From positions 124,113-188,112 of the forward strand of contig LBVU01000004.1 in the NCBI GenBank assembly GCA_000993205.1: a stretch of DNA of 64,000 nt. The letters run 5' to 3'. The notes beneath the pieces are model-generated. The model worked only from the letters and a program-made list of their open reading frames with translations. It made no database searches and was not told where the DNA came from. This document shows positions 7,878 to 63,644 of this stretch, piece by piece. Position 1 is the first letter of the stretch, and each line of letters starts with the position of its first letter. Origin of the DNA: Candidatus Woesebacteria bacterium GW2011_GWB1_39_10. GTDB lineage: Bacteria > Patescibacteriota > Microgenomatia > UBA8517. The position numbers and the translations under genes were made by a program.

Positions 7878-8474
7878 TTATTGGAAAAGTCTTGCCCTTC
7901 CTAATTTATAATTTGGATTTTTATTTTTGCGTTCTCCAATAACTTTGGCGGGGACTCCGCCAACAATTTCAAAATCCGAAACATCTTTTGTAACGACAGC
8001 TCCGGCAGCAACAACTGCGCCTTTACCGATTTTTACCCCCGGAAGAATAATCACTCTCGGCCCAATAAACACATGGTCTCCAATTGCAACTGGCTCGACT
8101 CTCGCAGAAAAATCTTCACCCTCCAAATCGTGCTCGGAGTTATAAATCATGACGCCCGATGCAATATCAACATGGCTCCCAATTGTCAAACGGTCTCTTC
8201 CGTCTAAAAACGCATGGTCACCGACAATCGTATCATCTCCAATAACAATATTATTCGGATCAAAGAAGTTTGCCCACATGTGGATAACTGAACCTTTTCC
8301 AATCTTCATACCGGACAGAATATAGAAAAGCTTCCTCAAAATATGAGATGGTATATGGCCCGCCCACCTTAATACCATTAACTCAAAATCCAAAAAATAA
8401 TTATACAAACGATTAAATATTTTTGGCAAGGCCTGACTCGGAGTCAAATTTTTTCCGGTTTTATCATTAAACAT
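7878..8474 (-). CDS. Hexapeptide-repeat (LbH) sugar O-/N-acetyltransferase, WbbJ/WcaF-like
   Basis: Repeated [LIV]-G-x-x-x-x hexapeptides (IGDDTIVGDHAFL, IGSHVDIASGVMI, IGDHVFIGPRVII, IGKGAVVAAGAVV). C-terminal GGVPAKVIGER. Confidence 0.85.
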   Translation of the reverse strand: MFNDKTGKNLTPSQALPKIFNRLYNYFLDFELMVLRWAGHIPSHILRKLFYILSGMKIGKGSVIHMWANFFDPNNIVIGDDTIVGDHAFLDGRDRLTIGSHVDIASGVMIYNSEHDLEGEDFSARVEPVAIGDHVFIGPRVIILPGVKIGKGAVVAAGAVVTKDVSDFEIVGGVPAKVIGERKNKNPNYKLGRARLFQ

Positions 8475-46668: not shown

Positions 46669-47223
46669 TTATTCTTTAGTTCTTCTGAGAATCTTTGCTG
46701 GCACACCACCGACAACACTGTTAGAAGGAACATCTTTCACAACAACAGCATTGGCTCCAATCTGAACATTATTTCCTATCGTAACCCGCCCAACGATACG
46801 AGCTCCTATAAAAACAGTAACACCATTACCCAATTTAGGTACTTCAAGATTTCTACTATGTCCTTTTGTTCCCAATGTTAGCGGTCCAATGAGCGTCAAG
46901 TTGTTACCAGCAACCGACCCATCCGCAACAATCACTCCCCGATTATGAATATATAGACTTTTGTCTATTTTGACCAACGGAGAGATGTTAATATCTAAAA
47001 CATAATATGTAACGATAAAATAAAACGGATATAAAACTGCTCCAATGATTTTCCAGACAACAAAAGTGTTTGATAGTAGATAATTTTCTATACGATAAAT
47101 AACAGAAAAAAACATACCTGGGTTGTGAAATAAAACGGCCAAGAACAATAGTGGATTCATCTTTTTATGAAGTTTTAAATATCTTCTCCAGTCGGACCAA
47201 ATAAGTTGTATTGTTTTAACCAC
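46669..47223 (-). CDS. Serine-acetyltransferase-like (CysE/WcaB family) hexapeptide O-acetyltransferase
   Basis: N-terminal SAT-like helix (IQLIWSDWRRYLK), then LbH repeats IGARIVGRVTIGNNVQIGANAVV and GGVPAKILR. Confidence 0.75.
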   Translation of the reverse strand: MVKTIQLIWSDWRRYLKLHKKMNPLLFLAVLFHNPGMFFSVIYRIENYLLSNTFVVWKIIGAVLYPFYFIVTYYVLDINISPLVKIDKSLYIHNRGVIVADGSVAGNNLTLIGPLTLGTKGHSRNLEVPKLGNGVTVFIGARIVGRVTIGNNVQIGANAVVVKDVPSNSVVGGVPAKILRRTKE

Positions 47224-49841: not shown

Positions 49842-50856
49842 TTGCGTTTTCTCTATATTTTAACCATAGTTTGTTATCCCTTATAATTTTCTCAATTGCC
49901 TGGGTCAATTCTTCGACGCTCAATTTAATGACCAGGCCGGCGTCATATTTTCTAACATCCTCAGATGTCCCAACCACATCAGTAATCACAATCGGCACTC
50001 CACAAGCCAAATATTCTCTGGCCTTTTTTGAGTCACCATAATAAACCCAAGAATAATTTTTTGAAAAAGTATAAATAGCCAAAGCAAGACTTGATTTAGA
50101 CACCTCCTCCAAGAGATCTTTATTGGATAGCTGACCTAGCAATTTTACATTTTTTGACAACCTCATCTTGCTAACTTTAGCAGCAAGTTTTCCCTGATAC
50201 ACCCCCGTTCCAATTAGGGAGAGATTTAAATTAGGTAATTCTTTTGATACTTTTTTAAAAGATTTAAGAACTAAGTCAAATATCGGACTATGTGTAAGGC
50301 CCATCACCATGACAATCTTATTTCTATCAATTTTATTTATTGGTAGTCTGGGACATTTATCAAAACTTGGTGAATTTGGAATAAATTTAATTTTCTCATT
50401 GGCTACACCTTGTTTTTTTCTAACCTCAATAATTCTGGTTGAAACGTTCCACACTTCATCTGAATTTTTTGCACAAAATTCATCTATTTTCAAATAACAA
50501 ATATTTAAGAATTTATTTTCAAATCTGGTGGGGGTATAATCTACACAATAAAAAATAGTCTTGTTTACCAAATCTAGTTTCTTAAGAACAATGCCGGCAA
50601 AGGCGTTTAGAGGGTCTATACCAATAAAGATATCTGGTTTATATGAAATACTTTTAAAAATCGTGTTTATTGTTTCAAAAAATGATTTAATTATTAATGG
50701 CAATTTTGAGACAAGTGGATATCCAATTAGTAAATATTTTCTTTTTTTGTTCTCCAGATAATCTTTTATGACATTTACCGGTCCATAAACCGGACCAGAG
50801 TCTGTGTAATAAATATGGCTAACCAGAAGAATTTTAGTGTCTCTCATACCATTCAA
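49789..50856 (-). CDS. Atypical GT4-family glycosyltransferase (paralog group A, member 3)
   Basis: IFYCVDYTPTRFENKFLNICYLKIDEFCAKNSDEVWNVSTRI and the C-terminal YLACGVPIVITDVVGTSE motif. Confidence 0.7.
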   Translation of the reverse strand: MNGMRDTKILLVSHIYYTDSGPVYGPVNVIKDYLENKKRKYLLIGYPLVSKLPLIIKSFFETINTIFKSISYKPDIFIGIDPLNAFAGIVLKKLDLVNKTIFYCVDYTPTRFENKFLNICYLKIDEFCAKNSDEVWNVSTRIIEVRKKQGVANEKIKFIPNSPSFDKCPRLPINKIDRNKIVMVMGLTHSPIFDLVLKSFKKVSKELPNLNLSLIGTGVYQGKLAAKVSKMRLSKNVKLLGQLSNKDLLEEVSKSSLALAIYTFSKNYSWVYYGDSKKAREYLACGVPIVITDVVGTSEDVRKYDAGLVIKLSVEELTQAIEKIIRDNKLWLKYRENAIKLGRDFDIDSILSTNL

Positions 50857-51721
50857 TTGTCTTTTTCAGACCATCTTCAAATGAAGTTTTCGCTTCCCAG
50901 TTGAGCTCTTTTCTCGCAAGAGATAAGGCCTGATTTATGTTAAAAACCTTTCCTTCCTCGTTTGAACTAAAATCAACTTTAATACCTTTACCCAATACCT
51001 TTTTAAAAACTTCGAGAACTTCTAAAACCGAATATTTTTTAGTCGCTCCCAAATTAAAAATTCCCGCTTTCTTTATTCGTATTACCGTTGAAAATGCTTC
51101 TACAATGTCACCTACATACAAATAATCTCTCTCCTGCTTCCCATCGCCATAAATAACCACTTTACCATCGTCTTTAATATTTGAATAAAATGTATATATA
51201 ATCCCTTTAAAATTTCCCGGACCATAAATATTAAAGGGGCGAAAAATAGTTGCGGGTTCACCGATTTTTGTAGACCAATATTGGACTATTTTTTCGGCAA
51301 GATATTTAGTCAACCCATATTCGGTATTCGGAAAACATTCATCAGTTTCCTTAAATTTATTTTTTTTATCCTTTCCATAAACAGCGACTGATGAAGTAAA
51401 TATGAATTGTTTTATGGGATGTTTTAGCGCCTCCATTATTAGGTTGCGGGTAGCCATAACGTTATCTTTAATTAGTTCTTCTTCCGGAGGTAAATTCCTC
51501 CCAGCCAGATGGATAACTACATCAACATCTTTCAAAAATTCCGAGATACCCTCTCCACTAACCAAATTTCCACGTACCCACTCTATACCTCTAGGAAGTG
51601 GGGGGTTTTCTTCAATCACAAACGCTTTTATTGAATAACCATCAGAAAGAAGTTTACTTATAAGGTGTCCTCCTAAAAAGCCAGTCGCTCCGGTTATTCC
51701 AATTTTCATTTCTAAACCCAA
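50834..51721 (-). CDS. NAD-dependent epimerase/dehydratase (SDR)
   Basis: KIGITGATGFLGGHLISKL and YGLTK (YxxxK). The likely start is the MKIGITG Met at about 51709. Confidence 0.8.
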   Translation of the reverse strand: MGLEMKIGITGATGFLGGHLISKLLSDGYSIKAFVIEENPPLPRGIEWVRGNLVSGEGISEFLKDVDVVIHLAGRNLPPEEELIKDNVMATRNLIMEALKHPIKQFIFTSSVAVYGKDKKNKFKETDECFPNTEYGLTKYLAEKIVQYWSTKIGEPATIFRPFNIYGPGNFKGIIYTFYSNIKDDGKVVIYGDGKQERDYLYVGDIVEAFSTVIRIKKAGIFNLGATKKYSVLEVLEVFKKVLGKGIKVDFSSNEEGKVFNINQALSLARKELNWEAKTSFEDGLKKTIEWYERH

Positions 51722-52710
51722 CCCTCTTTTTCCAATAAAGAGCGGAGTTCTTTTTTACCGATCTGCTCGGTGGTGTCTGAAGCATATCTAAATTCCTTTA
51801 GTGTTTTTTTACCTGCGTATTTTTTTTCTACTGCAGGGATAGATATTTGAGGTAAAATTACATAATAATCTCCGAACTCTACTGTTCTCACGCTTTCTGC
51901 GGGACTAATAAGTGTTTCGTGAATTTTCTCACCGGGACGGATTCCCATTTTAACTATACTTTCAGTATTTTTACCATTGGCCTCTAAAAGAACTTCTGCA
52001 AGGTCAACTATGGAATGACCCGGCATCTTTCTTACAAACACCTCACCACCAACACCTTCTGTCATTGCTGTTAATACCAACTCAACGCTTTTTTGGAGAG
52101 TTAGAATAAAACGGGTCATTCGGGAATCTGTAATGGTCAAGGGTTTGCCTTCTTGAATCAACTTTTTAAAGTGTGGTACAACCGACCCCCTTGAACCAAG
52201 AACATTTCCGTATCTGGTAGAAACAAATACAGTATTGCCTACATCATAGAGATTTGCAGTTGTAATGAGCCGTTCCTGAAGAGCTTTGGCCATTCCGTAG
52301 GCATTTATCGGCTCAACAGCTTTATCTGTAGAAAGCGCAACAACTTTTTCTACTCCTTCATCCCTAGCCGCTTCAATTATATTTTCAGCGCCAATAACGT
52401 TAGTCTTGATCCCCTCCCAAACATTATATTCAACCTCGGTGATCCATTTTAGGGCAGCAGCATGGACTACAATATCTACACCGCGCATGGCCTCACGAAC
52501 ACTTCTAAAATCTCTGATGTCCCCCAATACAAAACGAGTACTTTGCTCATTGTTGTATTCCAACCGCATAGCACCCTGCTTGTCTTCGTCCCTGCTAAAA
52601 ACGATTATTTCCTTTGGCCTATACTTTAGAATTTCTCCAATAAACATACGTCCAAAAGATCCGGTCCCACCGGTAACTAATATTCTCTTACCGCTAAGTA
52701 TTTTTGTCAT
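51712..52710 (-). CDS. UDP-N-acetylglucosamine 4,6-dehydratase, short PseB/FlaA1/CapE-like (Polysacc_synt_2)
   Basis: Matches H. pylori PseB blocks: ILVTGGTGSFG, IVVHAAALKWI, LSTDKAVEPINAYGMAKA, TRYGNVLGSRGSVVPHF, and KPLTITDSRMTRF. Confidence 0.8.
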   Translation of the reverse strand: MTKILSGKRILVTGGTGSFGRMFIGEILKYRPKEIIVFSRDEDKQGAMRLEYNNEQSTRFVLGDIRDFRSVREAMRGVDIVVHAAALKWITEVEYNVWEGIKTNVIGAENIIEAARDEGVEKVVALSTDKAVEPINAYGMAKALQERLITTANLYDVGNTVFVSTRYGNVLGSRGSVVPHFKKLIQEGKPLTITDSRMTRFILTLQKSVELVLTAMTEGVGGEVFVRKMPGHSIVDLAEVLLEANGKNTESIVKMGIRPGEKIHETLISPAESVRTVEFGDYYVILPQISIPAVEKKYAGKKTLKEFRYASDTTEQIGKKELRSLLEKEGWV

Positions 52711-53578: not shown

Positions 53579-54079
53579 ATGACATTTTTTAAATTACGTC
53601 TTTTGGCAGCATTTTCAGTCTTTGCCCTCTTCCTGTCAATTACCCCCACTGTTTTTGCCCAATCTCCGGAATCTTTCGGACTCACACCTCAAAAAACTCT
53701 TCCTGGTAGTTCCGGATATTTGTTCAAAAGGGTAAAGGAAAAAGTAACAAAAGTGTTTAAGTTTTCTAAAAACTCTAAATACCAATTCCAAAAAGGATTG
53801 CTTGAAAGAAGAGTTTCCGAATATGTCAGCCTTGTTGAAAAAAATGAACAATCACAAATTTCAGATGCTTCGCAAAGGTTGGCTTTCGAGGCAGGAATTC
53901 TTGCTGAAAGTTCGGTTGAAGAGTCCAAAGAAAAGAAAACTGAAATCATTAGCTTGTTTGAAAAATACAAACCAATTCTTGGAAAAATGAGGGACAACTT
54001 CCCTGCCAACACCCCTTTCTGGCTCTTGTCCCAACAAGACATTGATACAATGAATATCTTAACCGAAAAACTCAAGTAA
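53579..54079 (+). CDS. Secreted hypothetical protein with cleavable signal peptide
   Basis: MTFFKLRLLAAFSVFALFLSITPTVFA|QSP shows an n-h-c signal peptide with an AxA-like cleavage site. The mature part is predicted helical and K/E-rich. The overlapping minus-strand ORF 53689..54096 is rejected. Confidence 0.6.
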   Translation: MTFFKLRLLAAFSVFALFLSITPTVFAQSPESFGLTPQKTLPGSSGYLFKRVKEKVTKVFKFSKNSKYQFQKGLLERRVSEYVSLVEKNEQSQISDASQRLAFEAGILAESSVEESKEKKTEIISLFEKYKPILGKMRDNFPANTPFWLLSQQDIDTMNILTEKLK

Positions 54080-55023
54080 TGGCTAAAGTTCCACAAATAT
54101 CGTTTGTTATCCCTGCCAAGGATGAAGAAAAGACAATTTTATTGCTTCACGATCAGATCGTTGATGAAATGAAGAAAATTCATAAATCATTCGAGGTTAT
54201 TTTTGTCGACGACGGCTCTACAGACTCCACCCTTGAAATCGCAAAAAAACTTAACCGCAAAAATAAAAATGTAAAAATCGTAAAACACCGAGGAAATTTT
54301 GGTAAATCGATCGCACTACAAAGCGGTTTTGAAGCGAGTCAGGGTGAAATAATAATCACAATGGATGCAGATCTTCAGGACAATCCCAAGGAAATACCAA
54401 AATTTATTAAAAAAATCGAAGAAGGTCACGACCTGGTCTCAGGTTGGAAAAAGAAAAGATTCGACCCACTAAGCAAAACCATTCCCTCAAAAATGGGTAA
54501 TTGGCTAACTAGAAAACTAACGGGGGTCAAAATCCACGACTTAAATTGCGGTTTTAAAGCCTACAGAAAAAATGTCCTAGCAAATATTCATCTTTATGGG
54601 GAACTCTACAAATTCATTCCCGTACTTGTTACTCATCAAAATTTTAAAGTTACGGAGATTGTGGTATCCCATAAGCCAAGAAAATACGGTAAAAGCAAAT
54701 TTGGAATGGAAAGAAATATCAAAGGAGTACTTGATTTGATAACAGTAGTTTTCCTTACCGGTTACATTCGACGCCCCGGACATTTTTTTGGTTTTTGGGG
54801 AATGGTTTCGTTTTTTGTTGGATTTGTAATTGGCATTTACATAACATATTTGCGAGTCGTCACAGGAACAATCCAGGACAGACAACCATTACTCATTCTT
54901 GGAATGCTTCTTATGATTATTGGTATTCAATTAATTTCGACCGGTTTAGTATCGGAGATGATAGTTAGTCTTAATCAAAAAGATTCCTCTACGGAAAAAT
55001 ATATCGAAGAGAAAATTATTTAA
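54079..55023 (+). CDS. Polyprenyl-phosphate glycosyltransferase (GT2; dolichyl/undecaprenyl-phosphate mannose or glucose synthase, GtrB/DPM1-like) with two C-terminal TM helices
   Basis: ISFVIPAKDEEKTI...VIFVDDGSTDST...IITMDADLQDNP (DxD..Q). C-terminal TM helices FGFWGMVSFFVGFVIGIYITYL and LLILGMLLMIIGIQLISTGLV. TAATG overlap with the preceding gene. Confidence 0.85.
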   Translation: MAKVPQISFVIPAKDEEKTILLLHDQIVDEMKKIHKSFEVIFVDDGSTDSTLEIAKKLNRKNKNVKIVKHRGNFGKSIALQSGFEASQGEIIITMDADLQDNPKEIPKFIKKIEEGHDLVSGWKKKRFDPLSKTIPSKMGNWLTRKLTGVKIHDLNCGFKAYRKNVLANIHLYGELYKFIPVLVTHQNFKVTEIVVSHKPRKYGKSKFGMERNIKGVLDLITVVFLTGYIRRPGHFFGFWGMVSFFVGFVIGIYITYLRVVTGTIQDRQPLLILGMLLMIIGIQLISTGLVSEMIVSLNQKDSSTEKYIEEKII

Positions 55024-57131
55024 GGAAGCGTTTTTAATCCATACACATTTACCTCAAAATTCTTGAGCAAACATGAATTTTCAATCTGTGGGTCCAGCAT
55101 TATATAACGCGTATTTTTTCCGGCAAAAAGATAGACAAAATTTGTGTCATTCCACCCAATTATCTTTTCATCAACATTCGGTGCTACTTGCGGTGAGGTA
55201 ATGGGGTCAATTTGTTGTTGCCAGACCTTCTTGTCGCTTGATAAAGCGATATATCCCAAAGATCCGTTTTGACAACCATTTTTCGCATGATGGACAACTA
55301 ACTTTGTAATAAACACATTCTTACCCAAATCAATGTTTAGGGCCGACCCCAATATATTTTTATCAATAGACGTAAACTTTGGCAAATACGAAATTTCTTC
55401 CTTAAAAATGCTTTTTGTATGTTCCATATCATTTTTCCAAACCTTCAAAATTGGTACGCCATCAACAGAATAAACATAAACAGGCTCAAGATATTTATCA
55501 TAATACTGGAAACTATACCAGTATTTCATTGGCCATTCAAAATACATTTCAATACCATACTCTCCCTCCCGATTTGGGCCAGACCAGTTCGGTTTAGAAT
55601 AGTGCAAGTCGCTTCTAAACATTGTTCTTGAGATATTCGACATGACCCCAAGGGGAAGAGCAATTTTAGCTTCTATTTCGGAATTTTCATTTATCCATTT
55701 AACGCCTTGCAAATAAACTGATCCGTAAGTGTTGCCCCAATACGGAATATTTTTTAATTGGGCACCTTTTAATCCTCCCACCAGTTGATTAAAATATATA
55801 TTTTCATTAGGATGAATTTTCACCATTTCAAAAATAGAAAAAAACAGTCCTACTACAATCAAAGCAAGTGAAACTTTTCTGAAACGAAATCTAAGCAAAG
55901 TATACGTACCAACCCCTGAGAGAATAGCCAAAGCGGGCACATATTCCATAATTTGCCTCACACCGCCGTAAATATCAGCGTTTGGCCACGAAACCCTGAC
56001 AATTGAAACAAATAGCCAAAGTATTGCGAATAAATAGAACTCCATTTTTCTTAATCTAGCAAACAACCAGAAAGACAATATCCCAACTACCGAAAGAACC
56101 AAAACAGGGAGCGTTGTTGTTACGGATATCCAATAGGCAGGGTAAATATTCCAACCATAAAGAATATATTTAGACATTTCAGCAGGAGTTCCAATTCCTA
56201 TCTGGGTGTAATATCCCAAAATATTGAAGGTATTTCGTGCCGGATCTTGCCATAAATACGGCCAAAAAATATACACGATACCCAAAGAAATTGGCAAATA
56301 GACAACGAATGACAACAAGAGCATCCTTCTATCATTTAAAAATTGGGCTACCTTTGTAATCGAAAAATTTGGGGAAAACTTATTTATTAAATAAAAAACA
56401 ATCCATGGCACAACAATAACTGCGGCAAAAATAATATTTAATTTAGTTCCTAATGCCAAACCAGCCGCGATCGATGAAATTAAAATAAACTTCCATTTAT
56501 TTTTTACCACACCCAAATAAAAAAACATTATAGCTAGTCCGAAAAAAGACGCCTCCGGGGGATCCTTTATATTGAAATGGGATTCTGAAAAGAATAATGG
56601 ATAGCTGGCCAGAACAATTGAGCTAACAATTGCTGGAAACGTGCCGAGCTCTTGGCACACAAAATATGCAATTCCAATTATTAGCAAAAAGCTCGTAAAT
56701 AGAATAAACAAATGATGAGAGACGTTATCGCCCAATATTCCCAATTTTTGATAAAATAAATAGTTTGATAAAGCTGCCAAAATGTCATTTACAGGAGGGT
56801 GACCGCTATCGTTGACTACCCAAAATTCGTAATTATAATAATCATTTTGATAATAACTCCGCCTGAAACCGCCACCGGGGCACGAAGGCAACAAGAGCCC
56901 CAGATTTCCGGAGTTGCAGTTTGAATAAACCAGAGGCGGAAAATCATTGTAATTTTTCTTTCCCGTCAAAAAGAAATTAAGATAAGATTGGCCCCTGCTG
57001 AAATGTACAAAGCTGTCCCAATTGATTCCATAATCTGGTATTGTAGCTATTCCAATTATTAAAAACAAAACAGGAACAATTAGTATCAAAAAATGTGGTG
57101 AAATTAATATTTGTCTAAACTTTCTAAACAT
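55020..57131 (-). CDS. PMT/ArnT-family GT-C glycosyltransferase (protein O-mannosyltransferase-like), paralog 1
   Basis: The first loop DYGINWDSFVHFSRGQSYL is comparable to the PMT DE-VHFG and ArnT DETRYAEISR motifs. 703 aa, about 12 TM helices. A SESHFNIKDPPE block is shared with the paralog at 60760..62739. Confidence 0.8.
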   Translation of the reverse strand: MFRKFRQILISPHFLILIVPVLFLIIGIATIPDYGINWDSFVHFSRGQSYLNFFLTGKKNYNDFPPLVYSNCNSGNLGLLLPSCPGGGFRRSYYQNDYYNYEFWVVNDSGHPPVNDILAALSNYLFYQKLGILGDNVSHHLFILFTSFLLIIGIAYFVCQELGTFPAIVSSIVLASYPLFFSESHFNIKDPPEASFFGLAIMFFYLGVVKNKWKFILISSIAAGLALGTKLNIIFAAVIVVPWIVFYLINKFSPNFSITKVAQFLNDRRMLLLSFVVYLPISLGIVYIFWPYLWQDPARNTFNILGYYTQIGIGTPAEMSKYILYGWNIYPAYWISVTTTLPVLVLSVVGILSFWLFARLRKMEFYLFAILWLFVSIVRVSWPNADIYGGVRQIMEYVPALAILSGVGTYTLLRFRFRKVSLALIVVGLFFSIFEMVKIHPNENIYFNQLVGGLKGAQLKNIPYWGNTYGSVYLQGVKWINENSEIEAKIALPLGVMSNISRTMFRSDLHYSKPNWSGPNREGEYGIEMYFEWPMKYWYSFQYYDKYLEPVYVYSVDGVPILKVWKNDMEHTKSIFKEEISYLPKFTSIDKNILGSALNIDLGKNVFITKLVVHHAKNGCQNGSLGYIALSSDKKVWQQQIDPITSPQVAPNVDEKIIGWNDTNFVYLFAGKNTRYIMLDPQIENSCLLKNFEVNVYGLKTLP

Positions 57132-58190
57132 TTAGACCGAGGTTTTCCGATAATTATATTTATTAATCAGTTTAGCTATCTTTTCTACTTCTTTATCCGT
57201 CACAACAGCATCAAGCGGTATGGTTGCAACTCTTGGCCCAACGTATTCTGTAATCGGTAGTTTTTTATTCTTATAACCTTTAAAGGCCGGTTGTTGATGG
57301 AGAGGAGTAAAATTAAAGGAACAGCCAATTCCATTTTCTTTCATGAAATTGAAAAAATCATCTCTATTTTCGACCAAAATTGGGTATAGATGAGTTCCTT
57401 TGTTTTTCAATCCCAAAAGTTTATTATATAAATCCACAACATGGCGCCTTCTCTTTTCAAAACTTGGGAGTCTTTTCAATTGAACTCTGCCAATTGACGA
57501 ATTTAGATCAGTTGTATTAAATTTCCAACCGGAAAATTCAACCGTATAAACCCACTTAGATTGCAGACCATATCTTTTCCAAGCATCGCGTGACAGTCCA
57601 TGGAGTCTGGCCATCCTTAGCCAGTCTGCTACCTTACTATCCGACGTGGTAATCATTCCACCTTCGCCCGTCGTCATATTCTTGGTGGCATAAAAAGAAT
57701 AACAGGAAGCGAAAGCTTTTATATTTTCTCCATCTTTTTCTATTAGATGCGCACTGTCTTCGATTACAGGAATAGATGTTTTGATATGCGCTCTATTCGC
57801 AGCATAATGAACAGGGATAATAGCTTTAGTTTTTTTTGTAATGGCTGCGTCGAGCGACTTCTGGTCCATTGTAAAATCGTCTTCACGGATATCTACAAAA
57901 ACAGGGGTGGCACCACAGTGCACAACCACATTCGCAGTTGCAGCAAAAGTAAAAGAGGGAACAATGACTTCATCGCCATTTTTAATCCCAAGAGCTTTGA
58001 GTGCCAAAAACAACCCTGACGTTGCGCTATTAACCGCTATTGCATGTTTAGCGCCAACATATTTTGCAAATTCTTCCTCAAAAGCTTGCGTTTCGGGACC
58101 CATGGTAAGCCACCCACTTTTTAATACTTTTGTTACTGCTTTTATCTCTTCTTTACCTATACTTGGTCTTTCGAATGGTATTTGTTTCAT
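57132..58190 (-). CDS. DegT/DnrJ/EryC1/StrS-family PLP-dependent sugar aminotransferase (PglE/PseC/ArnB-like)
   Basis: The N-terminus IPFERPSIGKEEIKAVTKVLKSGWLTMGPETQAFEEEFAKYVGAKHAIAVNSATSGL is typical, and the lysine region FYATKNMTTGEGGM is present. Confidence 0.85.
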   Translation of the reverse strand: MKQIPFERPSIGKEEIKAVTKVLKSGWLTMGPETQAFEEEFAKYVGAKHAIAVNSATSGLFLALKALGIKNGDEVIVPSFTFAATANVVVHCGATPVFVDIREDDFTMDQKSLDAAITKKTKAIIPVHYAANRAHIKTSIPVIEDSAHLIEKDGENIKAFASCYSFYATKNMTTGEGGMITTSDSKVADWLRMARLHGLSRDAWKRYGLQSKWVYTVEFSGWKFNTTDLNSSIGRVQLKRLPSFEKRRRHVVDLYNKLLGLKNKGTHLYPILVENRDDFFNFMKENGIGCSFNFTPLHQQPAFKGYKNKKLPITEYVGPRVATIPLDAVVTDKEVEKIAKLINKYNYRKTSV

Positions 58191-58210
58191 ATAGCCATAT
58201 TAAAATAGTA

Positions 58211-59626
58211 TTATCTCACTATATTTATCCCGGGTGCAACACTTCTCAGAATATTGACCACTTCTTTCTTATCGTCCATTTTACGGAGTAGTTTACCTAC
58301 TACATTGACTATATTCACAGCTTCTTTTTTTCCTTTGATTAAAAATATCCGCTCACTAATTGTTTTTTGCTTATCTTCTGTATCATTGATCAGTTTTTCA
58401 TGCAATTTTTCTCCACGCCTAATACCGGAGTACTTTATTTTAATATCAGTTTCTGGGCTCAGACCGGAAAGTTTTATCATAAGCCTGGCCAAGTCGTCAA
58501 TCTTAATCGATTCGCCCATATCAAGCATAAACACTTCTCCCCCATCTTTGATTAAAAAACCTGCATATAAAACCAGCTGAACTGCTTCAGGAATTGTCAT
58601 AAAGTACCTGGTCATTTGTTTGTCTGTCACGATAACCGGACCGCCTTTAGCAATCTGTTTCTTGAACGTAGGGATAACACTTCCTTGGCTTCCTAAGACA
58701 TTTCCAAATCTAACCGAGCAAAATTTTGTCTTCCCTTTCGAATTGTAAAATGTCACTAGTTTCTCTGACAACAATTTAGTTGCGCCCATTATGCTCGACG
58801 GCTCAACTGCTTTATCGGTTGAAATATTAACAAATTTTTTTACTCCGAATTTTATTGCCGACAATATAATATTTTTTGTACCAAACACGTTGTTTTTAAT
58901 TGCTTCTTGCGGAAATTCTTCCATTAAAGGAACGTGCTTATATGCAGCGGCATGAAAAATTATCTCAGGTTTAGTACTATTGAAAATTTCTTCGATTCTT
59001 TTTTTGTCTTGAATATTGGCAACTATGCATTCAAAATCATTTTTGCCTCCGATATCAGATAACTCCAAGCCAAGTTCGTAAAGACCACTCTCCCAAAAAT
59101 CTAAAGCTATCAATTTTTTTGGGTTAAATGACAATATTTGCCTACATATCTCAGAACCAATTGACCCGGCTGCGCCGGTTATTAAAACAGTTTTATTTTT
59201 AAACTCATTCTTAAATAAAGATTGTTCCGATTGAACAATGGCCCTACCAAGTAAATCGCTTATCTCAATTTCCCTGACTTTGGAAAGTTTTACCTTCCCT
59301 TCTACGATTTCTAAAAGTCTGGGAACTATTTTAAAAATGACTTTGTGCTCTTCACAGTTTTTAATAACCTCTCTAATTAAAGAGCCGTTAGCTGATGGTA
59401 TCGCTATAAAAACTTCAGAAATTTTAAATTTTTTGATTAACCTTGAAAGTTCGCTGATTCTACCTATGATTTTAATACCATTTACTTTCTTAAAATTCAA
59501 ATCTTCTTTATCGTCTAGAAAACCTGCAATTTTATACCGATTTCTGAAATGTTTTTGAATTTCCTCCGAAAGTTCTTCGCCGGCAACTCCGGCACCAACA
59601 ATTATTATATTTTCTTTCTTATTCAT
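58211..59626 (-). CDS. UDP-N-acetylglucosamine 4,6-dehydratase, long soluble CapD/PglF/WbpM-like (Polysacc_synt_2 with N-terminal CoA-binding-like domain)
   Basis: IIIVGAGVAGEEL N-terminal domain. The dehydratase domain has VLITGAAGSIGSE, IFHAAAYKHVPLME, ISTDKAVEPSSIMGATK, VRFGNVLGSQGSVIPTF and MTRYFM. 471 aa, with no TM segments. Confidence 0.8.
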   Translation of the reverse strand: MNKKENIIIVGAGVAGEELSEEIQKHFRNRYKIAGFLDDKEDLNFKKVNGIKIIGRISELSRLIKKFKISEVFIAIPSANGSLIREVIKNCEEHKVIFKIVPRLLEIVEGKVKLSKVREIEISDLLGRAIVQSEQSLFKNEFKNKTVLITGAAGSIGSEICRQILSFNPKKLIALDFWESGLYELGLELSDIGGKNDFECIVANIQDKKRIEEIFNSTKPEIIFHAAAYKHVPLMEEFPQEAIKNNVFGTKNIILSAIKFGVKKFVNISTDKAVEPSSIMGATKLLSEKLVTFYNSKGKTKFCSVRFGNVLGSQGSVIPTFKKQIAKGGPVIVTDKQMTRYFMTIPEAVQLVLYAGFLIKDGGEVFMLDMGESIKIDDLARLMIKLSGLSPETDIKIKYSGIRRGEKLHEKLINDTEDKQKTISERIFLIKGKKEAVNIVNVVGKLLRKMDDKKEVVNILRSVAPGINIVR

Positions 59627-60759: not shown

Positions 60760-62739
60760 TTATTTAAGTCCCCAAAATTCAATATTTGGCGATTTGAGAA
60801 AGCAGGAATCTGAATCTGGAAACAAAATGCGAAGATATTTTAAATCTCTCGCTGCGAAAAAAAATGGAGATGTGTCTTTGGGCAAATTACCAACACTAAC
60901 CTGGATTGCTGGAATTGATTCCAGCTCGGTTGTCCATTTTACACGATCGAGGGATGTTTCAATATGTGCCGTTGCACTTGTACATTTATTATCTGGTATG
61001 TAATGCAAAAAAAATCGCGTGATCGTTTCTGATTGATTAAATATTATATTTAATTCTTTTTCGCCACTTTCCAAACGATAATCCCAAAGTTTTACCTCAA
61101 GTTTTTGATATTTAGAGTTTGTGTGGGCCAAATCGTTCTTCCAAATTTTAGCAATCGCTACTCCGTCAACTTTGACCTCGTAAACAGGAATCAACACCTT
61201 ATCGACATATTCCCAAACATACGGATAAGCATTATTTTGGCCGCCGTAAATCATCTCAAATAGATACTCCCCACCTCTATTCATACCAGTCCAGTTCATA
61301 TTCCCAAAATCAAGATCCGACCTCAACTGCGGCAACGCAACATTTGAACCCGTGCCTTGTACCAATCCAAGCTTTGCTCCTGGTTCGACGTTTATATTAA
61401 GCCATCTAATTGCTTGCCAATAAGAATTACCAAAACTATTCCCCCAATATGGTATCTTTTTCTGCGAAGCACCTTTTAAACCACCAACCAAAAAGTTGAA
61501 ATACACATTTTCATTTGGATGCAATCTAATCAAAACAACTACTTGGGGTATAAATAAAATAAGCAAAATGCCGAAAATTGTATATTTAGAAAAACTTGTA
61601 TTTTTAATAATCCAGTCAAAAATAACTTTTGCCCCCAATCCAGACAAAAGCGCCATCGCAGGAACATATTCCATTATCTGGCGTATTCCACCATAAATTG
61701 TCGTATTGGGCAACATAACTCTAGAAATAGGAACTAAAAACCACAACAGCCAAAGCCATTCTGTCTTTCTTTTAGACAACTTCCCAAAAAGAATACGCGT
61801 CGTGCCGACTAGCGTCAAGAATAAAGAAAATGGTTGGGTTGTAATTGCGACCCAATAGATCGGAAACAGATTTATTTTCTTAAACAAAAAATATCTAGGA
61901 TCATTGATACCCCCAATGCCGATTCCTTTATAATAACCAAACGCATCAATAAAATTTTTAAGAGGATCTCTCCATAAATAAGGCCAAAGAACTAGAAAAA
62001 TTAAAAATACAATAGCGGGAGAGAAAATAAGCATAAATTTGTAACATTTGGGAATCCCCCTAATCCAAACTCCCGGTTTCCTGAACTTTTCCCGATATCT
62101 AATTAAAAGATATGGAACCAGAATGAAGGGCAAAAAAACAATATTAAACTTCGTACCCAATCCAAAAGCACAAAAAACAAGCGATGTAAGAAGCCAAATC
62201 CAATTACCTTTCTGCAACGATTTCCAAAAAGAAAAAACAGTAATTGTAAAAAATGCAGTTTCTACTGGATCTTTTATGTTGAAATGTGATTCACTAAAAA
62301 AGATTGGATATGTAGCTAGAGTCAGACCACAAACCAAGGCCCCCACAAGGCCGATCTCTTCATAAGCAAAGAGAGTGACAGAAAGCACTGTCAGGGTTGA
62401 AACAAAAATAATGAATAAATGATAACTATCGAGATCTCCTAAAATATTCAACTTTTGATAAAAAATGTAATTAAAAAAAGCTGAAAAAATATCACCCGTC
62501 GGTGGATGAGCACTGTCATTTTTAAGAAAATATGTTCCATTATACGAGTCATTTTGATAATAACTTCTTCGACTTTGATCTTTCGCGTATGTTTTTCGGC
62601 CAGATATTAAATACTGCAAAAACGCCTGCCCGCGCGAATAGTGGATCGAGTCATCCCAGTTAATACCATAATCTTTGAGCGTAACGAAAGAAACAATAAA
62701 AAAAAGAATGGAAACGCCTACGATTATATTTTTTTTCAT
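60760..62739 (-). CDS. PMT/ArnT-family GT-C glycosyltransferase (protein O-mannosyltransferase-like), paralog 2
   Basis: LKDYGINWDDSIHYSRGQAFLQY and YPIFFSESHFNIKDPVE closely parallel 55020..57131. 659 aa. Confidence 0.8.
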   Translation of the reverse strand: MKKNIIVGVSILFFIVSFVTLKDYGINWDDSIHYSRGQAFLQYLISGRKTYAKDQSRRSYYQNDSYNGTYFLKNDSAHPPTGDIFSAFFNYIFYQKLNILGDLDSYHLFIIFVSTLTVLSVTLFAYEEIGLVGALVCGLTLATYPIFFSESHFNIKDPVETAFFTITVFSFWKSLQKGNWIWLLTSLVFCAFGLGTKFNIVFLPFILVPYLLIRYREKFRKPGVWIRGIPKCYKFMLIFSPAIVFLIFLVLWPYLWRDPLKNFIDAFGYYKGIGIGGINDPRYFLFKKINLFPIYWVAITTQPFSLFLTLVGTTRILFGKLSKRKTEWLWLLWFLVPISRVMLPNTTIYGGIRQIMEYVPAMALLSGLGAKVIFDWIIKNTSFSKYTIFGILLILFIPQVVVLIRLHPNENVYFNFLVGGLKGASQKKIPYWGNSFGNSYWQAIRWLNINVEPGAKLGLVQGTGSNVALPQLRSDLDFGNMNWTGMNRGGEYLFEMIYGGQNNAYPYVWEYVDKVLIPVYEVKVDGVAIAKIWKNDLAHTNSKYQKLEVKLWDYRLESGEKELNIIFNQSETITRFFLHYIPDNKCTSATAHIETSLDRVKWTTELESIPAIQVSVGNLPKDTSPFFFAARDLKYLRILFPDSDSCFLKSPNIEFWGLK

Positions 62740-62876: not shown

Positions 62877-63644
62877 TCACCGGCGATGGCTTCTCTGTTT
62901 TCGAAGCACAAATAAATAATTGGGAATCATTGGATAAAGTATTCTTAGTGCAAAACCTGGGATTTTGAATACGAAAGAATTTTTTTTGATAAGGTCATCC
63001 ACATAATACCTAAACGGGGACCTGATAACTTTCAATGTGAAATCTTCAACTATAAAATTTCCCATCAATTTTTTAATCCCTATTATTGTCCTTAAACGAG
63101 GCTCGTAATATTCACCAGACTTTGTCCATCGTACATAAAAATCGGCAAGCCAAATGGGAAGCCATGAAACAAATGGAAGATTTGGATAGTGCGCATCTCT
63201 AATAACTAATCTGTTGCCGGCACCCAAAAAACAGATTCCATCCTGTTTTAACACGCGATATATTTCATCCATTAATAATTTTGGGTTTTCTGCGTGTTCA
63301 TATATCTGATTTGCTACAATAATATCAAATGAGTTATCTCCGAAAGGGAAGCTACCATCCGGCTTTAATAATTTGAAACTAAGATTTTTCTTTTTATGTT
63401 TGCTCGCCCTGCGAATAGCGACCCTATCAACATCAACCCCAACGACATATCTAAAATATGGCGATAAATATGATGAAATTATTCCTTCCGCACAACCAAC
63501 ATCAAGAAGTTTCGCTTTTTTTATTTGAGGACCAAAAGCATCTTTTAAAATTCTAATGATCTTTTTAGTTTTCCTGAGTCTGCTCTTTTTCTCGTAAACT
63601 AAATCTGCACCATATACCTGACTGTGAAATTGTTTTGTTATCAT
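62877..63644 (-). CDS. Class I SAM-dependent methyltransferase
   Basis: LLDVGCAEGIISSYL motif I and DIIVANQIYEHA motif II. Confidence 0.85.
   Translation of the reverse strand: MITKQFHSQVYGADLVYEKKSRLRKTKKIIRILKDAFGPQIKKAKLLDVGCAEGIISSYLSPYFRYVVGVDVDRVAIRRASKHKKKNLSFKLLKPDGSFPFGDNSFDIIVANQIYEHAENPKLLMDEIYRVLKQDGICFLGAGNRLVIRDAHYPNLPFVSWLPIWLADFYVRWTKSGEYYEPRLRTIIGIKKLMGNFIVEDFTLKVIRSPFRYYVDDLIKKNSFVFKIPGFALRILYPMIPNYLFVLRKQRSHRR

What the first reader, a model, noticed from the sequence alone, without database searches (positions are those of the whole stretch)
57132..59626. PglF-like dehydratase plus DegT aminotransferase: UDP-4-amino-4,6-dideoxy-HexNAc (bacillosamine/QuiNAc4N-type) pathway, with candidate N-acetyltransferases elsewhere
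58211..59626 is a soluble long CapD/PglF/WbpM-type 4,6-dehydratase. 57132..58190 is a DegT-family aminotransferase. Together they make a UDP-4-amino-4,6-dideoxy-N-acetylhexosamine, and the two LbH acetyltransferases (7878..8474, 46669..47223) could complete a di-N-acetylated sugar. A separate short PseB-like dehydratase (51712..52710) with an adjacent SDR (50834..51721) points to a second 6-deoxy-HexNAc (FucNAc/QuiNAc or a nonulosonic precursor). These rare sugars are classically the reducing-end residues of O-linked and N-linked protein glycans.
Basis: established knowledge. Interest (0 to 1): 0.5.

Follow-up and report, generated by a model that had tools for sequence, protein, structure and literature searches.

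The report
Amino-sugar synthesis pair in Woesebacteria
Two adjacent genes in an uncultured groundwater bacterium (Candidatus Woesebacteria) encode enzymes predicted to convert UDP-GlcNAc into a 4-amino-4,6-dideoxy-N-acetylhexosamine for the cell surface; the chemistry is ordinary, but the gene context suggests delivery as a free-amine decoration rather than as the di-N-acetylated first sugar of a protein glycan.

Summary
Window 58211-59626(-) encodes a 471-aa, membrane-anchor-less PglF/WbpM-type UDP-GlcNAc 4,6-dehydratase. Window 57132-58190(-) encodes a 352-aa DegT-family aminotransferase. Both lie in one tightly packed operon, in a 64-kb glycan island of Candidatus Woesebacteria.

Their coupling is well supported. 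The pair is adjacent in 12 further Microgenomates loci and fused into one ~821-aa protein in five relatives. In one lineage a LegB-like dehydratase plus a nucleotidyltransferase replaces the PglF-like gene.

The likely product is UDP-2-acetamido-4-amino-2,4,6-trideoxyhexose. C4 stereochemistry is unresolved. The nearest named relatives are the Shigella sonnei WbgZ/WbgX pair (about 41% identity), S. pneumoniae Spr1654 and ArnB, not C. jejuni PglE.

- Both hexapeptide acetyltransferases are O-acetyltransferase types, lie far from the pair, and are not conserved with it.
- No phosphoglycosyl transferase occurs in the window or in 18 related loci.
- No pseudaminic acid genes are present.

The conserved partners are instead a GT4, two GT-C enzymes and an ArnC-like GT2. 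This suggests delivery either by the GT4 or by an Arn-like polyprenyl-phosphate route. It is a new member of known families, of modest interest.

The parts
58211..59626 (-). Soluble (TM-less) PglF/WbpM-type UDP-GlcNAc 4,6-dehydratase, 471 aa. It has an N-terminal Rossmann-like CoA_binding_3 domain and a Polysacc_synt_2 catalytic domain.
   Evidence: - Domains: Pfam.
- Relatives: best PDB match PglF 5BJU, 270 bits; 41.9% identity to S. sonnei WbgZ residues 143-556.
- Motifs: STDKA at residue 269 and MGATK at residue 280.
- Membrane anchor: no hydrophobic segment. Of the 120 best homologs, 115 are under 520 aa and 5 are fused to the aminotransferase.
57132..58190 (-). DegT-family PLP-dependent nucleotide-sugar 4-aminotransferase, 352 aa.
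   Evidence: - Family: Pfam DegT 321 bits.
- NCBIfam: ArnB 288 and PseC 268 bits, both below their cut-offs.
- PDB: ArnB 222, Spr1654 175, PseC 135, PglE 79 bits.
- Identity: WbgX 40.9%, E. coli ArnB 37.2%.
- Residues: K170 aligns with the ArnB catalytic Lys188. F82 replaces ArnB Trp89. Both are invariant in 30 family members (PMC5936713).
59623..60759 (-). GT4 glycosyltransferase, 378 aa. It overlaps the dehydratase start by 4 bp and is the most constant neighbour of the pair.
   Evidence: - Family: Pfam Glycos_transf_1.
- Synteny: an ortholog lies upstream of the dehydratase module in about 12 related loci.
- PDB: only generic hits, BshA/MshA.
60760..62739 (-). GT-C membrane glycosyltransferase, 659 aa (PMT/PMT_2, GT39/83-like), at the head of the operon.
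   Evidence: - Family: Pfam PMT_2 and PMT.
- Topology: multiple TM segments.
- Synteny: orthologs at 40-53% identity lie upstream of the GT4 in most related loci.
55020..57131 (-). GT-C membrane glycosyltransferase, 703 aa, with a C-terminal discoidin/CBM32-like beta-sandwich. It starts immediately after the aminotransferase stop codon.
   Evidence: - Family: Pfam PMT_2.
- Model: AF2 pLDDT 81.8.
- Fold: Foldseek top hit is ArnT 5F15 (E 1e-7), then AglB/STT3, ALG12 and Pmt4. The C-terminal domain hits CBM32 and neuropilin b1.
- Synteny: orthologs lie next to the aminotransferase in L092, L097, L093/94, L100 and L007.
54079..55023 (+). ArnC/GtrB-type polyprenyl-phosphate glycosyltransferase (GT2, 314 aa, two C-terminal TM helices). 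It is convergent with the 703-aa GT-C gene.
   Evidence: - NCBIfam: ArnC 177.9 bits, full length, below the 529 cut-off.
- PDB: ArnC 147, GtrB 100, DPMS 68 bits.
- Identity and topology: 30.2% to E. coli ArnC, with the same C-terminal TM pair.
- Synteny: orthologs (54-74%) are adjacent to the aminotransferase or the 703-aa GT-C in 6 related loci and within 10 kb in 2 more. They are absent from 3 loci.
53579..54079 (+). Small secreted DUF5667 protein, 166 aa, with a signal peptide. It recurs in the cassette.
   Evidence: - Family: Pfam DUF5667.
- Signal-peptide-like N-terminus.
- Synteny: found in L097, L093/94, L008 and L089.
62877..63644 (-). Class I SAM methyltransferase, 255 aa, upstream of the operon. 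Its role is unknown.
   Evidence: - Family: Pfam Methyltransf_11/23/25.
- Synteny: an ortholog lies upstream of the 659-aa GT-C in L097, and methyltransferases sit in the same position in L006, L007 and L089.
- PDB: no similarity to the sugar N-methyltransferases TylM1/DesVI.
51712..52710 (-). Second, short PseB/FnlA-type UDP-GlcNAc 4,6-dehydratase, 332 aa. It belongs to a separate conserved block: GT2, dehydratase, SDR, GT4.
   Evidence: - NCBIfam: TIGR03589 PseB 364.5 bits (cut-off 407.75), FnlA 290.
- PDB: PseB 266, FnlA 263, CapE 244, PglF 132 bits.
- Motif: keeps the tyrosine (STDKAVEPINAYGMAK).
- Synteny: the block is conserved in L097, L093/94 and L007.
50834..51721 (-). Extended SDR, 295 aa. 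It is the probable 4-reductase or epimerase that works with the short dehydratase.
   Evidence: - Family: Pfam Epimerase 162 bits.
- PDB: generic hits, including Pal 6BWL at 87 bits.
- Synteny: co-conserved with the PseB-like gene.

Best explanation
The two genes are consecutive steps of one nucleotide-sugar pathway in Candidatus Woesebacteria.

1. The 471-aa enzyme is a cytoplasmic, anchor-less version of the PglF/WbpM/WbgZ class. It oxidises, dehydrates and reduces UDP-GlcNAc to UDP-2-acetamido-2,6-dideoxy-D-xylo-hexos-4-ulose. This is inferred from family membership and catalytic motifs.
2. The 352-aa PLP enzyme transfers an amino group from glutamate to C4. The product is UDP-2-acetamido-4-amino-2,4,6-trideoxyhexose. 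This is inferred. The galacto isomer (AATGal/FucNAc4N) is slightly favoured over the gluco isomer (bacillosamine precursor), but the question is not resolved.
3. No N-acetyltransferase of the PglD, PseH or formyltransferase type is linked to the pair. The 4-amine therefore probably stays free, giving a cationic sugar.
4. The sugar is then used by the co-conserved transferases of the same operon. There are two routes of about equal likelihood.
   (a) The GT4 encoded directly upstream adds it to a lipid-linked glycan in the cytoplasm.
   (b) The ArnC-like GT2 loads it onto polyprenyl phosphate, and the adjacent GT-C, with its CBM32-like outer domain, transfers it onto a surface glycan. This resembles Ara4N/ArnT, GtrB/GtrC and PpgS/Rv3779.

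The sugar is not installed as a reducing-end sugar by a cluster-encoded phosphoglycosyl transferase.

The confidence of 0.7 applies to steps 1 and 2, for which I would give about 0.85, combined with the free-amine and non-priming reading. Neither delivery route on its own exceeds about 0.4.
For: Family assignment and catalytic residues:
- Dehydratase: 270 bits to PglF. It has the PglF 'ISTDKAV' Thr-Asp-Lys motif and Met in place of the SDR Tyr. These motifs are kept in 118 of 120 homologs.
- Aminotransferase: Lys170, the 'EDSAH' motif and Phe82 are invariant. Phe rather than ArnB's Trp89 at the PLP-stacking position is what PMC5936713 links to acceptance of a 2-acetamido sugar.

Coupling of the two enzymes:
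- The dehydratase ortholog lies directly upstream of the aminotransferase in 12 independent loci.
- Five homologs of about 821 aa are dehydratase-aminotransferase fusions. The C-terminal half of P0157 is 69% identical to this aminotransferase.
- In L091/L098 the PglF-like gene is replaced by a LegB-like 4,6-dehydratase (406 bits) plus a sugar-1-phosphate nucleotidyltransferase. That is another route to an NDP-4-keto-6-deoxy-GlcNAc.

Nearest named pair:
- S. sonnei WbgZ (41.9%) and WbgX (40.9%), from the FucNAc4N-containing form I O-antigen cluster.

Operon packing:
- The GT4 and dehydratase genes overlap by 4 bp.
- A 20-bp gap separates the dehydratase and aminotransferase genes.
- No gap separates the aminotransferase gene from the 703-aa GT-C gene.

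Downstream partners:
- GT4, GT-C and ArnC-like GT2 are conserved with the pair.
- The GT2 matches ArnC over its full length and has the same two C-terminal TM helices.
- The 703-aa GT-C model's top fold match is ArnT, and it carries a CBM32-like domain.

Absence of alternatives:
- No Bac_transf or WecA-type transferase appears among the scanned window ORFs or the called genes of 8 related loci. WbgY finds no tblastn hit in 329 kb.
- The LbH proteins are O-acetyltransferase types.
Against: - No enzyme activity was measured. Everything rests on homology and gene context.
- Both NCBIfam equivalog cut-offs are missed (ArnB 288/631, PseC 268/423.5), so the exact substrate and C4 stereochemistry are open.
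- The Met-for-Tyr substitution also occurs in the 5-epimerising CapE/FnlA enzymes. Retention at C5 is therefore inferred only from overall similarity to PglF/WbgZ.
- The ArnC-like GT2 is absent within 8-10 kb in 3 of 12 loci (L006, L089, L008), and it is convergent rather than co-transcribed.
- The window holds at least six GT-C genes and two ArnC/PgfS-like GT2 genes, so pairings are ambiguous.
- ArnC uses an N-formylated sugar. No formyltransferase, deformylase or ArnE/F-type flippase was found in the window.
- A phosphoglycosyl transferase or an N-acetyltransferase could be encoded elsewhere in the genome.
Confidence: 0.7

Rival explanations
1. First reader's model. The pair makes UDP-bacillosamine (gluco). 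One of the two LbH enzymes N-acetylates it to di-N-acetylbacillosamine. The sugar then becomes the reducing-end residue of an N- or O-linked protein glycan, as in C. jejuni Pgl or Neisseria Pgl.
For: - The dehydratase is closest to PglF among solved structures.
- The window contains Wzx, a Wzy_C/O-antigen-ligase-like protein and many GT-C proteins.
- Two LbH acyltransferases exist in the window.
Against: - PglE is one of the weakest DegT matches, at 79 bits against 222 for ArnB.
- Both LbH proteins fall in O-acetyltransferase families. They reach only 37 and 53 bits on the NeuD/PglD/VioB model, whose cut-off is 160.8.
- The LbH genes lie 10 and 49 kb away. They are next to the aminotransferase in none of 19 close-family loci, although LbH genes flank distant aminotransferase relatives in 16 loci.
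- No PglC/WbgY/WecA-type phosphoglycosyl transferase is present in the window or in 18 related loci.
- No window protein scored a Pfam match to an STT3/PglB family; the GT-C proteins matched only PMT_2, PMT or AftD models.
Confidence: 0.12
2. The aminotransferase is a PseC-type enzyme. It acts on the product of the short PseB-like dehydratase (51712-52710) and feeds a pseudaminic-acid-type nonulosonic acid pathway.
For: - The PseC model TIGR03588 gives 267.7 bits, the second-best NCBIfam hit.
- A PseB-like dehydratase that keeps the catalytic Tyr lies 4.4 kb away.
- Phe82 matches Phe84 of PseC.
Against: - The score is below the PseC cut-off of 423.5.
- H. pylori PseC gives only 135 bits.
- No PseH, PseG, PseI/NeuB or PseF homolog appears among the scanned window ORFs.
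- The aminotransferase is fused to, or adjacent to, the PglF-like dehydratase in relatives.
- The PseB-like gene belongs to a separate conserved block with its own SDR and GT4.
Confidence: 0.04
3. Genuine Arn pathway. The aminotransferase is an ArnB ortholog that makes UDP-L-Ara4N, passed on by the ArnC-like GT2 and an ArnT-like GT-C.
For: - ArnB is the best NCBIfam and PDB match for the aminotransferase.
- ArnC is the best match for the GT2.
- ArnT is the top fold match for the 703-aa GT-C.
- A UDP-glucose dehydrogenase gene lies at 31254-32567.
Against: - All scores are far below the equivalog cut-offs: 288/631 and 178/529.
- Trp89 of ArnB is Phe here.
- The fused or adjacent partner is a UDP-GlcNAc 4,6-dehydratase, not an ArnA-type decarboxylase or formyltransferase.
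- ArnD, ArnE/F and ArnT give no BLAST hit.
- From established knowledge, not tested here: Patescibacteria are regarded as lacking an outer membrane, so no lipid A acceptor is expected.
Confidence: 0.03

Closest known systems
Shigella sonnei / Plesiomonas form I O-antigen WbgZ (dehydratase) and WbgX (aminotransferase), the FucNAc4N (AATGal) branch
   Same: - Both have a PglF-class dehydratase plus a DegT aminotransferase encoded together.
- Identity is 41.9% (dehydratase) and 40.9% (aminotransferase). WbgX is the best hit in the whole plasmid collection.
- The product keeps a free 4-amine.
   Different: - WbgZ carries an N-terminal TM block (residues 8-133) that is missing here.
- WbgX/Z flank the phosphoglycosyl transferase WbgY, which has no counterpart here.
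- The partners here are a GT4, GT-C enzymes and an ArnC-like GT2.
Campylobacter jejuni PglF (with PglE and PglD), the bacillosamine pathway
   Same: - PglF is the best solved relative of the dehydratase (270 bits).
- It has an identical Thr-Asp-Lys motif, and Met replaces the SDR Tyr.
   Different: - There is no TM domain here.
- PglE is a distant match (79 bits).
- No PglD-type N-acetyltransferase or PglC transferase was found, and no protein matched a Pfam STT3/PglB family.
ArnB/ArnC/ArnT lipid A Ara4N modification, and analogous three-component systems (GtrA/B/C, PpgS/Rv3779, GacI/GacL)
   Same: - An aminotransferase whose best match is ArnB lies next to an ArnC-like GT2.
- That GT2 has two C-terminal TM helices.
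- A GT-C enzyme whose best fold match is ArnT is also adjacent.
   Different: - The sugar precursor is UDP-GlcNAc, via a 4,6-dehydratase, not UDP-GlcA via ArnA.
- No formyltransferase, deformylase or ArnE/F is present.
- The GT-C has a CBM32-like domain, which suggests a glycan acceptor.
- Lipid A is not expected in this organism (general knowledge, not tested here).
Streptococcus pneumoniae Spr1654 (AATGal aminotransferase of teichoic acid synthesis; PMC5936713)
   Same: - It is a DegT enzyme proposed to act on UDP-4-keto-6-deoxy-GlcNAc.
- It scores 175 bits.
- The residue stacking on PLP is aromatic but not Trp.
   Different: - Spr1654 has two insertions that are absent here.
- Its product is loaded by a phosphoglycosyl transferase as the first sugar of the repeat unit.
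C. jejuni LegB/LegC, the GDP-GlcNAc route of legionaminic acid synthesis
   Same: In loci L091/L098 the aminotransferase ortholog (70% identity) follows a LegB-like dehydratase and a nucleotidyltransferase.
   Different: - The window itself uses the PglF-like dehydratase.
- The LegC model gives only 172 bits against a cut-off of 420.
- No nonulosonic acid synthase is present.

Membership tests
PglF/WbpM/CapD-class UDP-GlcNAc 4,6-dehydratase (Pfam Polysacc_synt_2, long form) | Polysacc_synt_2 catalytic SDR domain | tested here: met
   375.9 bits, E 1.6e-112, residues 147-430. PglF 5BJU scores 270 bits.
PglF/WbpM/CapD-class UDP-GlcNAc 4,6-dehydratase (Pfam Polysacc_synt_2, long form) | Catalytic Thr-Asp-Lys (PglF T395/D396/K397), with Met replacing the classical SDR Tyr | tested here: met
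   'ISTDKAV' and 'IMGATK' align with the PglF motifs. They are conserved in 118 of 120 homologs.
PglF/WbpM/CapD-class UDP-GlcNAc 4,6-dehydratase (Pfam Polysacc_synt_2, long form) | Rossmann-like linker domain (CoA_binding_3) N-terminal to the catalytic domain | tested here: met
   PF13727 at residues 4-102, 53 bits. PDB 3NKL scores 59.5 bits over residues 2-141.
PglF/WbpM/CapD-class UDP-GlcNAc 4,6-dehydratase (Pfam Polysacc_synt_2, long form) | N-terminal block of about four TM helices | tested here: not met
   No hydrophobic 19-mer was found. WbgZ and the L016 dehydratase have TM blocks at residues 8-133. The upstream GT4 gene overlaps the start codon. Of the 120 best homologs, 115 are under 520 aa.
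PglF/WbpM/CapD-class UDP-GlcNAc 4,6-dehydratase (Pfam Polysacc_synt_2, long form) | Converts UDP-GlcNAc to UDP-4-keto-6-deoxy-GlcNAc with retention at C5 | not testable with these tools
   This needs an enzyme assay with NMR.
DegT/DnrJ/EryC1/StrS sugar aminotransferase | Fold-type I PLP domain with the Schiff-base Lys and the Asp that binds the PLP nitrogen | tested here: met
   PF01041 scores 321 bits. K170 aligns with ArnB K188. The 'EDSAH' motif is present. Both are invariant in alignment A1.
[quoted passage not shown] | Score at or above the curated equivalog cut-off | tested here: not met
   287.6 bits against a cut-off of 631. Identity to E. coli ArnB is 37.2%.
[quoted passage not shown] | Trp89 stacking on PLP, said to exclude 2-acetamido sugars | tested here: not met
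   The aligned residue is Phe82, invariant in the family. The interpretation comes from PMC5936713.
PseC (TIGR03588) / pseudaminic acid pathway | Equivalog cut-off reached, and PseH/PseG/PseI/PseF partners present | tested here: not met
   267.7 bits against a cut-off of 423.5. No GNAT, NeuB or cytidylyltransferase domains were found among the scanned window ORFs.
Pgl-type bacillosamine pathway | PglD/NeuD-type N-acetyltransferase and a PglC-type phosphoglycosyl transferase linked to the pair | tested here: not met
   The LbH proteins score 36.6 and 53.1 bits on TIGR03570, whose cut-off is 160.8. No Bac_transf hit was found.
WbgX/WbgZ-type AATGal (FucNAc4N) synthesis | Orthology to WbgX/WbgZ and a galacto configuration of the product | tested here: inconclusive
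   Identities of 40.9% and 41.9% are the best among named pairs. They are too low to establish stereochemistry.
Arn-like three-component (GT2, flippase, GT-C) decoration system | Polyprenyl-phosphate GT2 with a C-terminal TM pair, encoded next to a GT-C enzyme | tested here: met
   The GT2 at 54079-55023 scores 178 bits on ArnC over its full length. It has TM segments at residues 235-298, like ArnC. It is convergent with the GT-C at 55020-57131, whose top fold hit is ArnT.
Arn-like three-component (GT2, flippase, GT-C) decoration system | Small flippase (GtrA or ArnE/F) and, for Arn proper, a formyltransferase and deformylase | tested here: not met
   ArnA (formyl domain), ArnD, ArnE and ArnF give no BLAST hit in the window. 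There is no room for small ORFs between 52.7 and 63.6 kb.
Arn-like three-component (GT2, flippase, GT-C) decoration system | The GT2 uses the 4-amino sugar made by this pair | not testable with these tools
   Only synteny is available: the GT2 is adjacent or within 10 kb in 8 related loci plus the window, and absent in 3.

The most novel reading that the evidence does not exclude
Woesebacteria and other Microgenomates run an Arn-like route on a different sugar. A cationic 2-acetamido-4-amino-2,4,6-trideoxyhexose is loaded onto polyprenyl phosphate by an ArnC-like GT2. A GT-C enzyme with a CBM32-like domain then attaches it outside the cell to a surface glycan. This would be the first case of an AATGal/bacillosamine-type sugar delivered as a lipid-monophosphate-linked decoration rather than as the priming sugar of a repeat unit. 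It would also be a candidate determinant of surface charge and host attachment in these episymbionts.
Probability: 0.3. Interest if true: 0.55.

Novelty: new member of a known kind. Interest (0 to 1): 0.3.

Why it matters
Almost nothing is known experimentally about the cell surface of Candidate Phyla Radiation bacteria. These organisms are thought to live attached to hosts.

- This work defines a cassette conserved across Microgenomates: methyltransferase, GT-C, GT4, soluble dehydratase, aminotransferase, second GT-C, and an ArnC-like GT2.
- The cassette predicts a positively charged 4-amino-6-deoxy-HexNAc on the surface of these bacteria.
- It gives concrete targets for heterologous expression.
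- It corrects the tempting annotation of a Pgl-like protein glycosylation system. That annotation is not supported here.

The enzymology itself is standard.

Tried and rejected
- PDB sequence searches with the two GT-C proteins gave nothing. A structure prediction was needed. Even then, ArnT is only marginally ahead of the STT3, ALG and PMT folds.
- The genome-contig scan with the single aminotransferase sequence returned mainly distant relatives at 49% identity or less. These were little use for synteny of the close family. The metagenome scan with an alignment and exact-protein look-ups worked better.
- I first took L016 ('Neisseria sp.') for a pgl locus with PglC. It is a WbgXYZ-type locus: its 199-aa gene is 53% identical to WbgY. 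I dropped the claim that a bacillosamine enzyme is equally close.
- I considered the conserved methyltransferase (62877-63644) as a sugar N-methyltransferase. There is no TylM1/DesVI similarity, so the idea has no support.
- I considered the 122-aa ORF at 25651-26019 as the bAvd homolog seen just outside the window. It is an unrelated hydrophobic protein.
- Literature searches for CPR glycosylation, ArnT or GT39 found nothing specific. The entry 7B0D could not be traced to a paper.
- A full tree against PglF, WbpM, PseB, CapE and FnlA was not built, because reference sequences were not downloadable. HMMER scores against their PDB chains and the NCBIfam models were used instead.

Full report
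**What is there**

The window is a single large glycan-biosynthesis island. Its GC content is about 35%, and it contains no tRNA or Rfam RNA.

Exact-protein look-ups place it in Rifle groundwater metagenomes and in GenBank. The source organism is Candidatus Woesebacteria bacterium GW2011. The dehydratase is KKQ91830.1 and the aminotransferase is KKQ91829.1.

The two ORFs of the finding are real and lie on the minus strand. They sit in a tightly packed operon, in this order:
- 659-aa GT-C, 60760-62739;
- GT4, 59623-60759, overlapping the dehydratase gene by 4 bp;
- dehydratase, 58211-59626;
- a 20-bp gap;
- aminotransferase, 57132-58190;
- 703-aa GT-C, 55020-57131, with no gap.

An ArnC-like GT2 (54079-55023, plus strand) converges on the end of the operon. 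A small secreted DUF5667 protein (53579-54079) precedes that GT2.

**The dehydratase**

Domain structure: a Polysacc_synt_2 catalytic domain (376 bits) follows an N-terminal CoA_binding_3 Rossmann-like domain.

Bit scores against solved structures:

| Enzyme | Bits |
|---|---|
| C. jejuni PglF | 270 |
| Pen | 172 |
| PseB | 164 |
| FnlA / CapE | 149 |
| dTDP-glucose dehydratases | about 35 |

That criterion is not met.

The PglF catalytic Thr-Asp-Lys ('ISTDKAV') is present, as is Met in place of the SDR Tyr ('IMGATK'). Both motifs are conserved in 118 of 120 homologs.

The protein has no hydrophobic segment. S. sonnei WbgZ is 41.9% identical over its residues 143-556 and carries an N-terminal TM block. 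'Soluble long form' is therefore correct.

Among the 120 closest homologs:
- 115 are under 520 aa;
- none has the canonical 520-700 aa length;
- 5 are about 821-aa fusions with a DegT domain.

**The aminotransferase**

The match to DegT_DnrJ_EryC1 is full length at 321 bits. NCBIfam gives ArnB 288 bits (cut-off 631) and PseC 268 bits (cut-off 423.5). It is therefore neither equivalog.

Bit scores against solved structures:

| Enzyme | Bits |
|---|---|
| ArnB | 222 |
| 7B0D | 190 |
| Spr1654 (6EWJ), the S. pneumoniae AATGal enzyme (PMC5936713) | 175 |
| PseC | 135 |
| PglE | 79 |

The best hit in 72,556 plasmids is WbgX of the S. sonnei form I O-antigen cluster, at 40.9% identity. E. coli ArnB is 37.2% identical.

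Lys170 aligns with the ArnB Schiff-base lysine. The PLP-stacking residue is Phe82, where ArnB has Trp89. PMC5936713 argues that Trp89 excludes a 2-acetamido group, and that Phe (PseC) or Tyr (Spr1654) admits one. Phe82 and Lys170 are invariant in 30 family members.

**Do the two enzymes work together?**

Yes, on three independent lines of evidence:
- **Synteny.** In the close family (at least 59% identity; Woesebacteria, Levybacteria and other Microgenomates), the dehydratase ortholog lies directly upstream of the aminotransferase in 12 distinct loci.
- **Fusion.** In the fusion protein P0157, the C-terminal half is 69% identical to this aminotransferase.
- **Gene displacement.** In L091/L098 the aminotransferase ortholog (70% identity) follows a LegB-like 4,6-dehydratase (406 bits; cut-off 475) and a sugar-1-phosphate nucleotidyltransferase. 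That is the other known route to an NDP-4-keto-6-deoxy-GlcNAc.

The inferred product is a nucleotide-linked 2-acetamido-4-amino-2,4,6-trideoxyhexose.

C4 stereochemistry cannot be read from sequence. The nearest named relatives make axial (galacto or L-arabino) amines, which gives a slight lean towards AATGal/FucNAc4N over bacillosamine.

**What happens next**

Neither is supported.
- **LbH at 46669-47223.** It is CysE/EpsC/WcaB-like.
- **LbH at 7878-8474.** It is WcaF/maltose O-acetyltransferase-like.
- **NeuD/PglD/VioB model.** The two LbH proteins reach only 37 and 53 bits, against a cut-off of 160.8.
- **LbH gene context.** They lie 10 and 49 kb from the pair. LbH genes flank the aminotransferase in none of 19 close-family loci, but do so in 16 loci of distant relatives.
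- **Priming transferase.** No Bac_transf or WecA-type enzyme appears among the scanned window ORFs or among the called genes of eight related loci. WbgY finds nothing by tblastn in 329 kb.
- **Nonulosonic acid genes.** No PseH/G/I/F or NeuB homolog is present.

The conserved partners are different:
- The GT4 is present in about 12 loci.
- The 659-aa GT-C is present in most loci.
- The 703-aa GT-C and the ArnC-like GT2 lie next to the pair in 6 related loci and within 10 kb in 2 more. They are absent in 3.

The GT2 matches ArnC over its full length:
- NCBIfam 178 bits;
- ArnC structures 147 bits, against GtrB 100 and DPMS 68;
- 30% identity to E. coli ArnC.

It has the same two C-terminal TM helices as ArnC.

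An AlphaFold model of the 703-aa GT-C (pLDDT 81.8) has ArnT as its top Foldseek hit (E 1e-7), only narrowly ahead of STT3/AglB, ALG12 and Pmt4. Its C-terminal beta-sandwich resembles CBM32/discoidin domains, which points to a glycan acceptor.

I therefore rate two delivery routes about equal:
- the GT4 uses the UDP-sugar in the cytoplasm;
- an Arn-like route runs through a polyprenyl-phosphate sugar and the GT-C.

Points against the Arn-like route:
- There is no formyltransferase, deformylase or ArnE/F homolog in the window.
- The GT2 is convergent rather than co-transcribed.
- The island holds at least six GT-C genes and two ArnC/PgfS-like GT2 genes, so pairings are ambiguous.

**The second module**

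The ORF at 51712-52710 is a PseB/FnlA-type short dehydratase.
- TIGR03589 gives 364.5 bits (cut-off 407.75).
- Against solved structures, PseB scores 266, FnlA 263 and CapE 244 bits.
- It keeps the PseB tyrosine.

With the SDR at 50834-51721 and the GT4 at 49789-50856, it forms a separately conserved block. A nonulosonic acid precursor is not supported.

**Verdict**

This is a new, anchor-less member of known enzyme families in a CPR bacterium. It has a conserved and previously undescribed gene context. Interest is modest.

Noticed in passing
P0149, P0157, P0172, P0175, P0203 (homologs; not in the window): Natural fusions of about 821 aa join the soluble PglF-like dehydratase to the DegT aminotransferase in Microgenomates. 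The C-terminal half of P0157 is 69% identical to the window aminotransferase.
   Followed up: partly
L091:8266-9986 and L098: In one lineage, a LegB-like 4,6-dehydratase plus a sugar-1-phosphate nucleotidyltransferase replaces the PglF-like dehydratase upstream of the aminotransferase ortholog (70% identity). A second ArnB/PseC-like DegT gene (380 and 365 bits) lies 1.2 kb downstream.
   Followed up: partly
window 55020-57131, protein residues ~490-703: The GT-C enzyme carries a C-terminal discoidin/CBM32-like beta-sandwich. Foldseek hits include CBM32 and neuropilin b1. Two homologs have Pfam F5_F8_type_C.
   Followed up: partly
window 39472-41235, 37004-39475, 33835-35808, 20727-23255 (all minus strand): Four large ORFs (587-842 aa) have no Pfam match at E <= 1e-5 but 8-11 hydrophobic segments each. 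They may be further GT-C-like enzymes. The island already has PMT_2 GT-C genes at 2651-4147, 10698-11999, 16531-17922, 55020-57131 and 60760-62739, plus a 1163-aa AftD-like protein at 26006-29497.
   Followed up: no
L001:2427-4706 (about 1 kb beyond the window's right end): A bAvd gene (accessory protein of diversity-generating retroelements) sits next to a 626-aa protein, just outside the window on the same contig. This hints at a DGR target beside the glycan island.
   Followed up: no
window 53579-54079 (+): A small secreted DUF5667 protein (signal peptide MTFFKLRLLAAFSVFALFLSITPTVFAQ) recurs beside the cassette in several Microgenomates loci (L097, L093/94, L008, L089). Its function is unknown.
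   Followed up: partly
L089:18103-21068: In a related locus that lacks the ArnC-like ortholog, three genes lie 8-10 kb downstream of the aminotransferase: a YdjC-type deacetylase, a 242-aa PgfS/ArnC-like GT2 and a Formyl_trans_N gene. The set resembles the ArnA (formyltransferase), ArnC and ArnD logic.
   Followed up: no
window 47290-48240 (+), 48254-48907 (+) and 48882-49841 (+): A second polyprenyl-phosphate-type GT2 has PgfS as its best match (246 bits). It is followed by a 217-aa unknown protein and a GDP-L-fucose-synthase-like SDR (293 bits, cut-off 500). The three are conserved as a block in L097.
   Followed up: no
window 43979-45826 (-): An AsnB-type glutamine amidotransferase resembles the XrtA/PEP-CTERM-system amidotransferase (530 bits, cut-off 817). 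It may amidate a uronic acid. A UDP-glucose/GDP-mannose-type dehydrogenase lies at 31254-32567.
   Followed up: no
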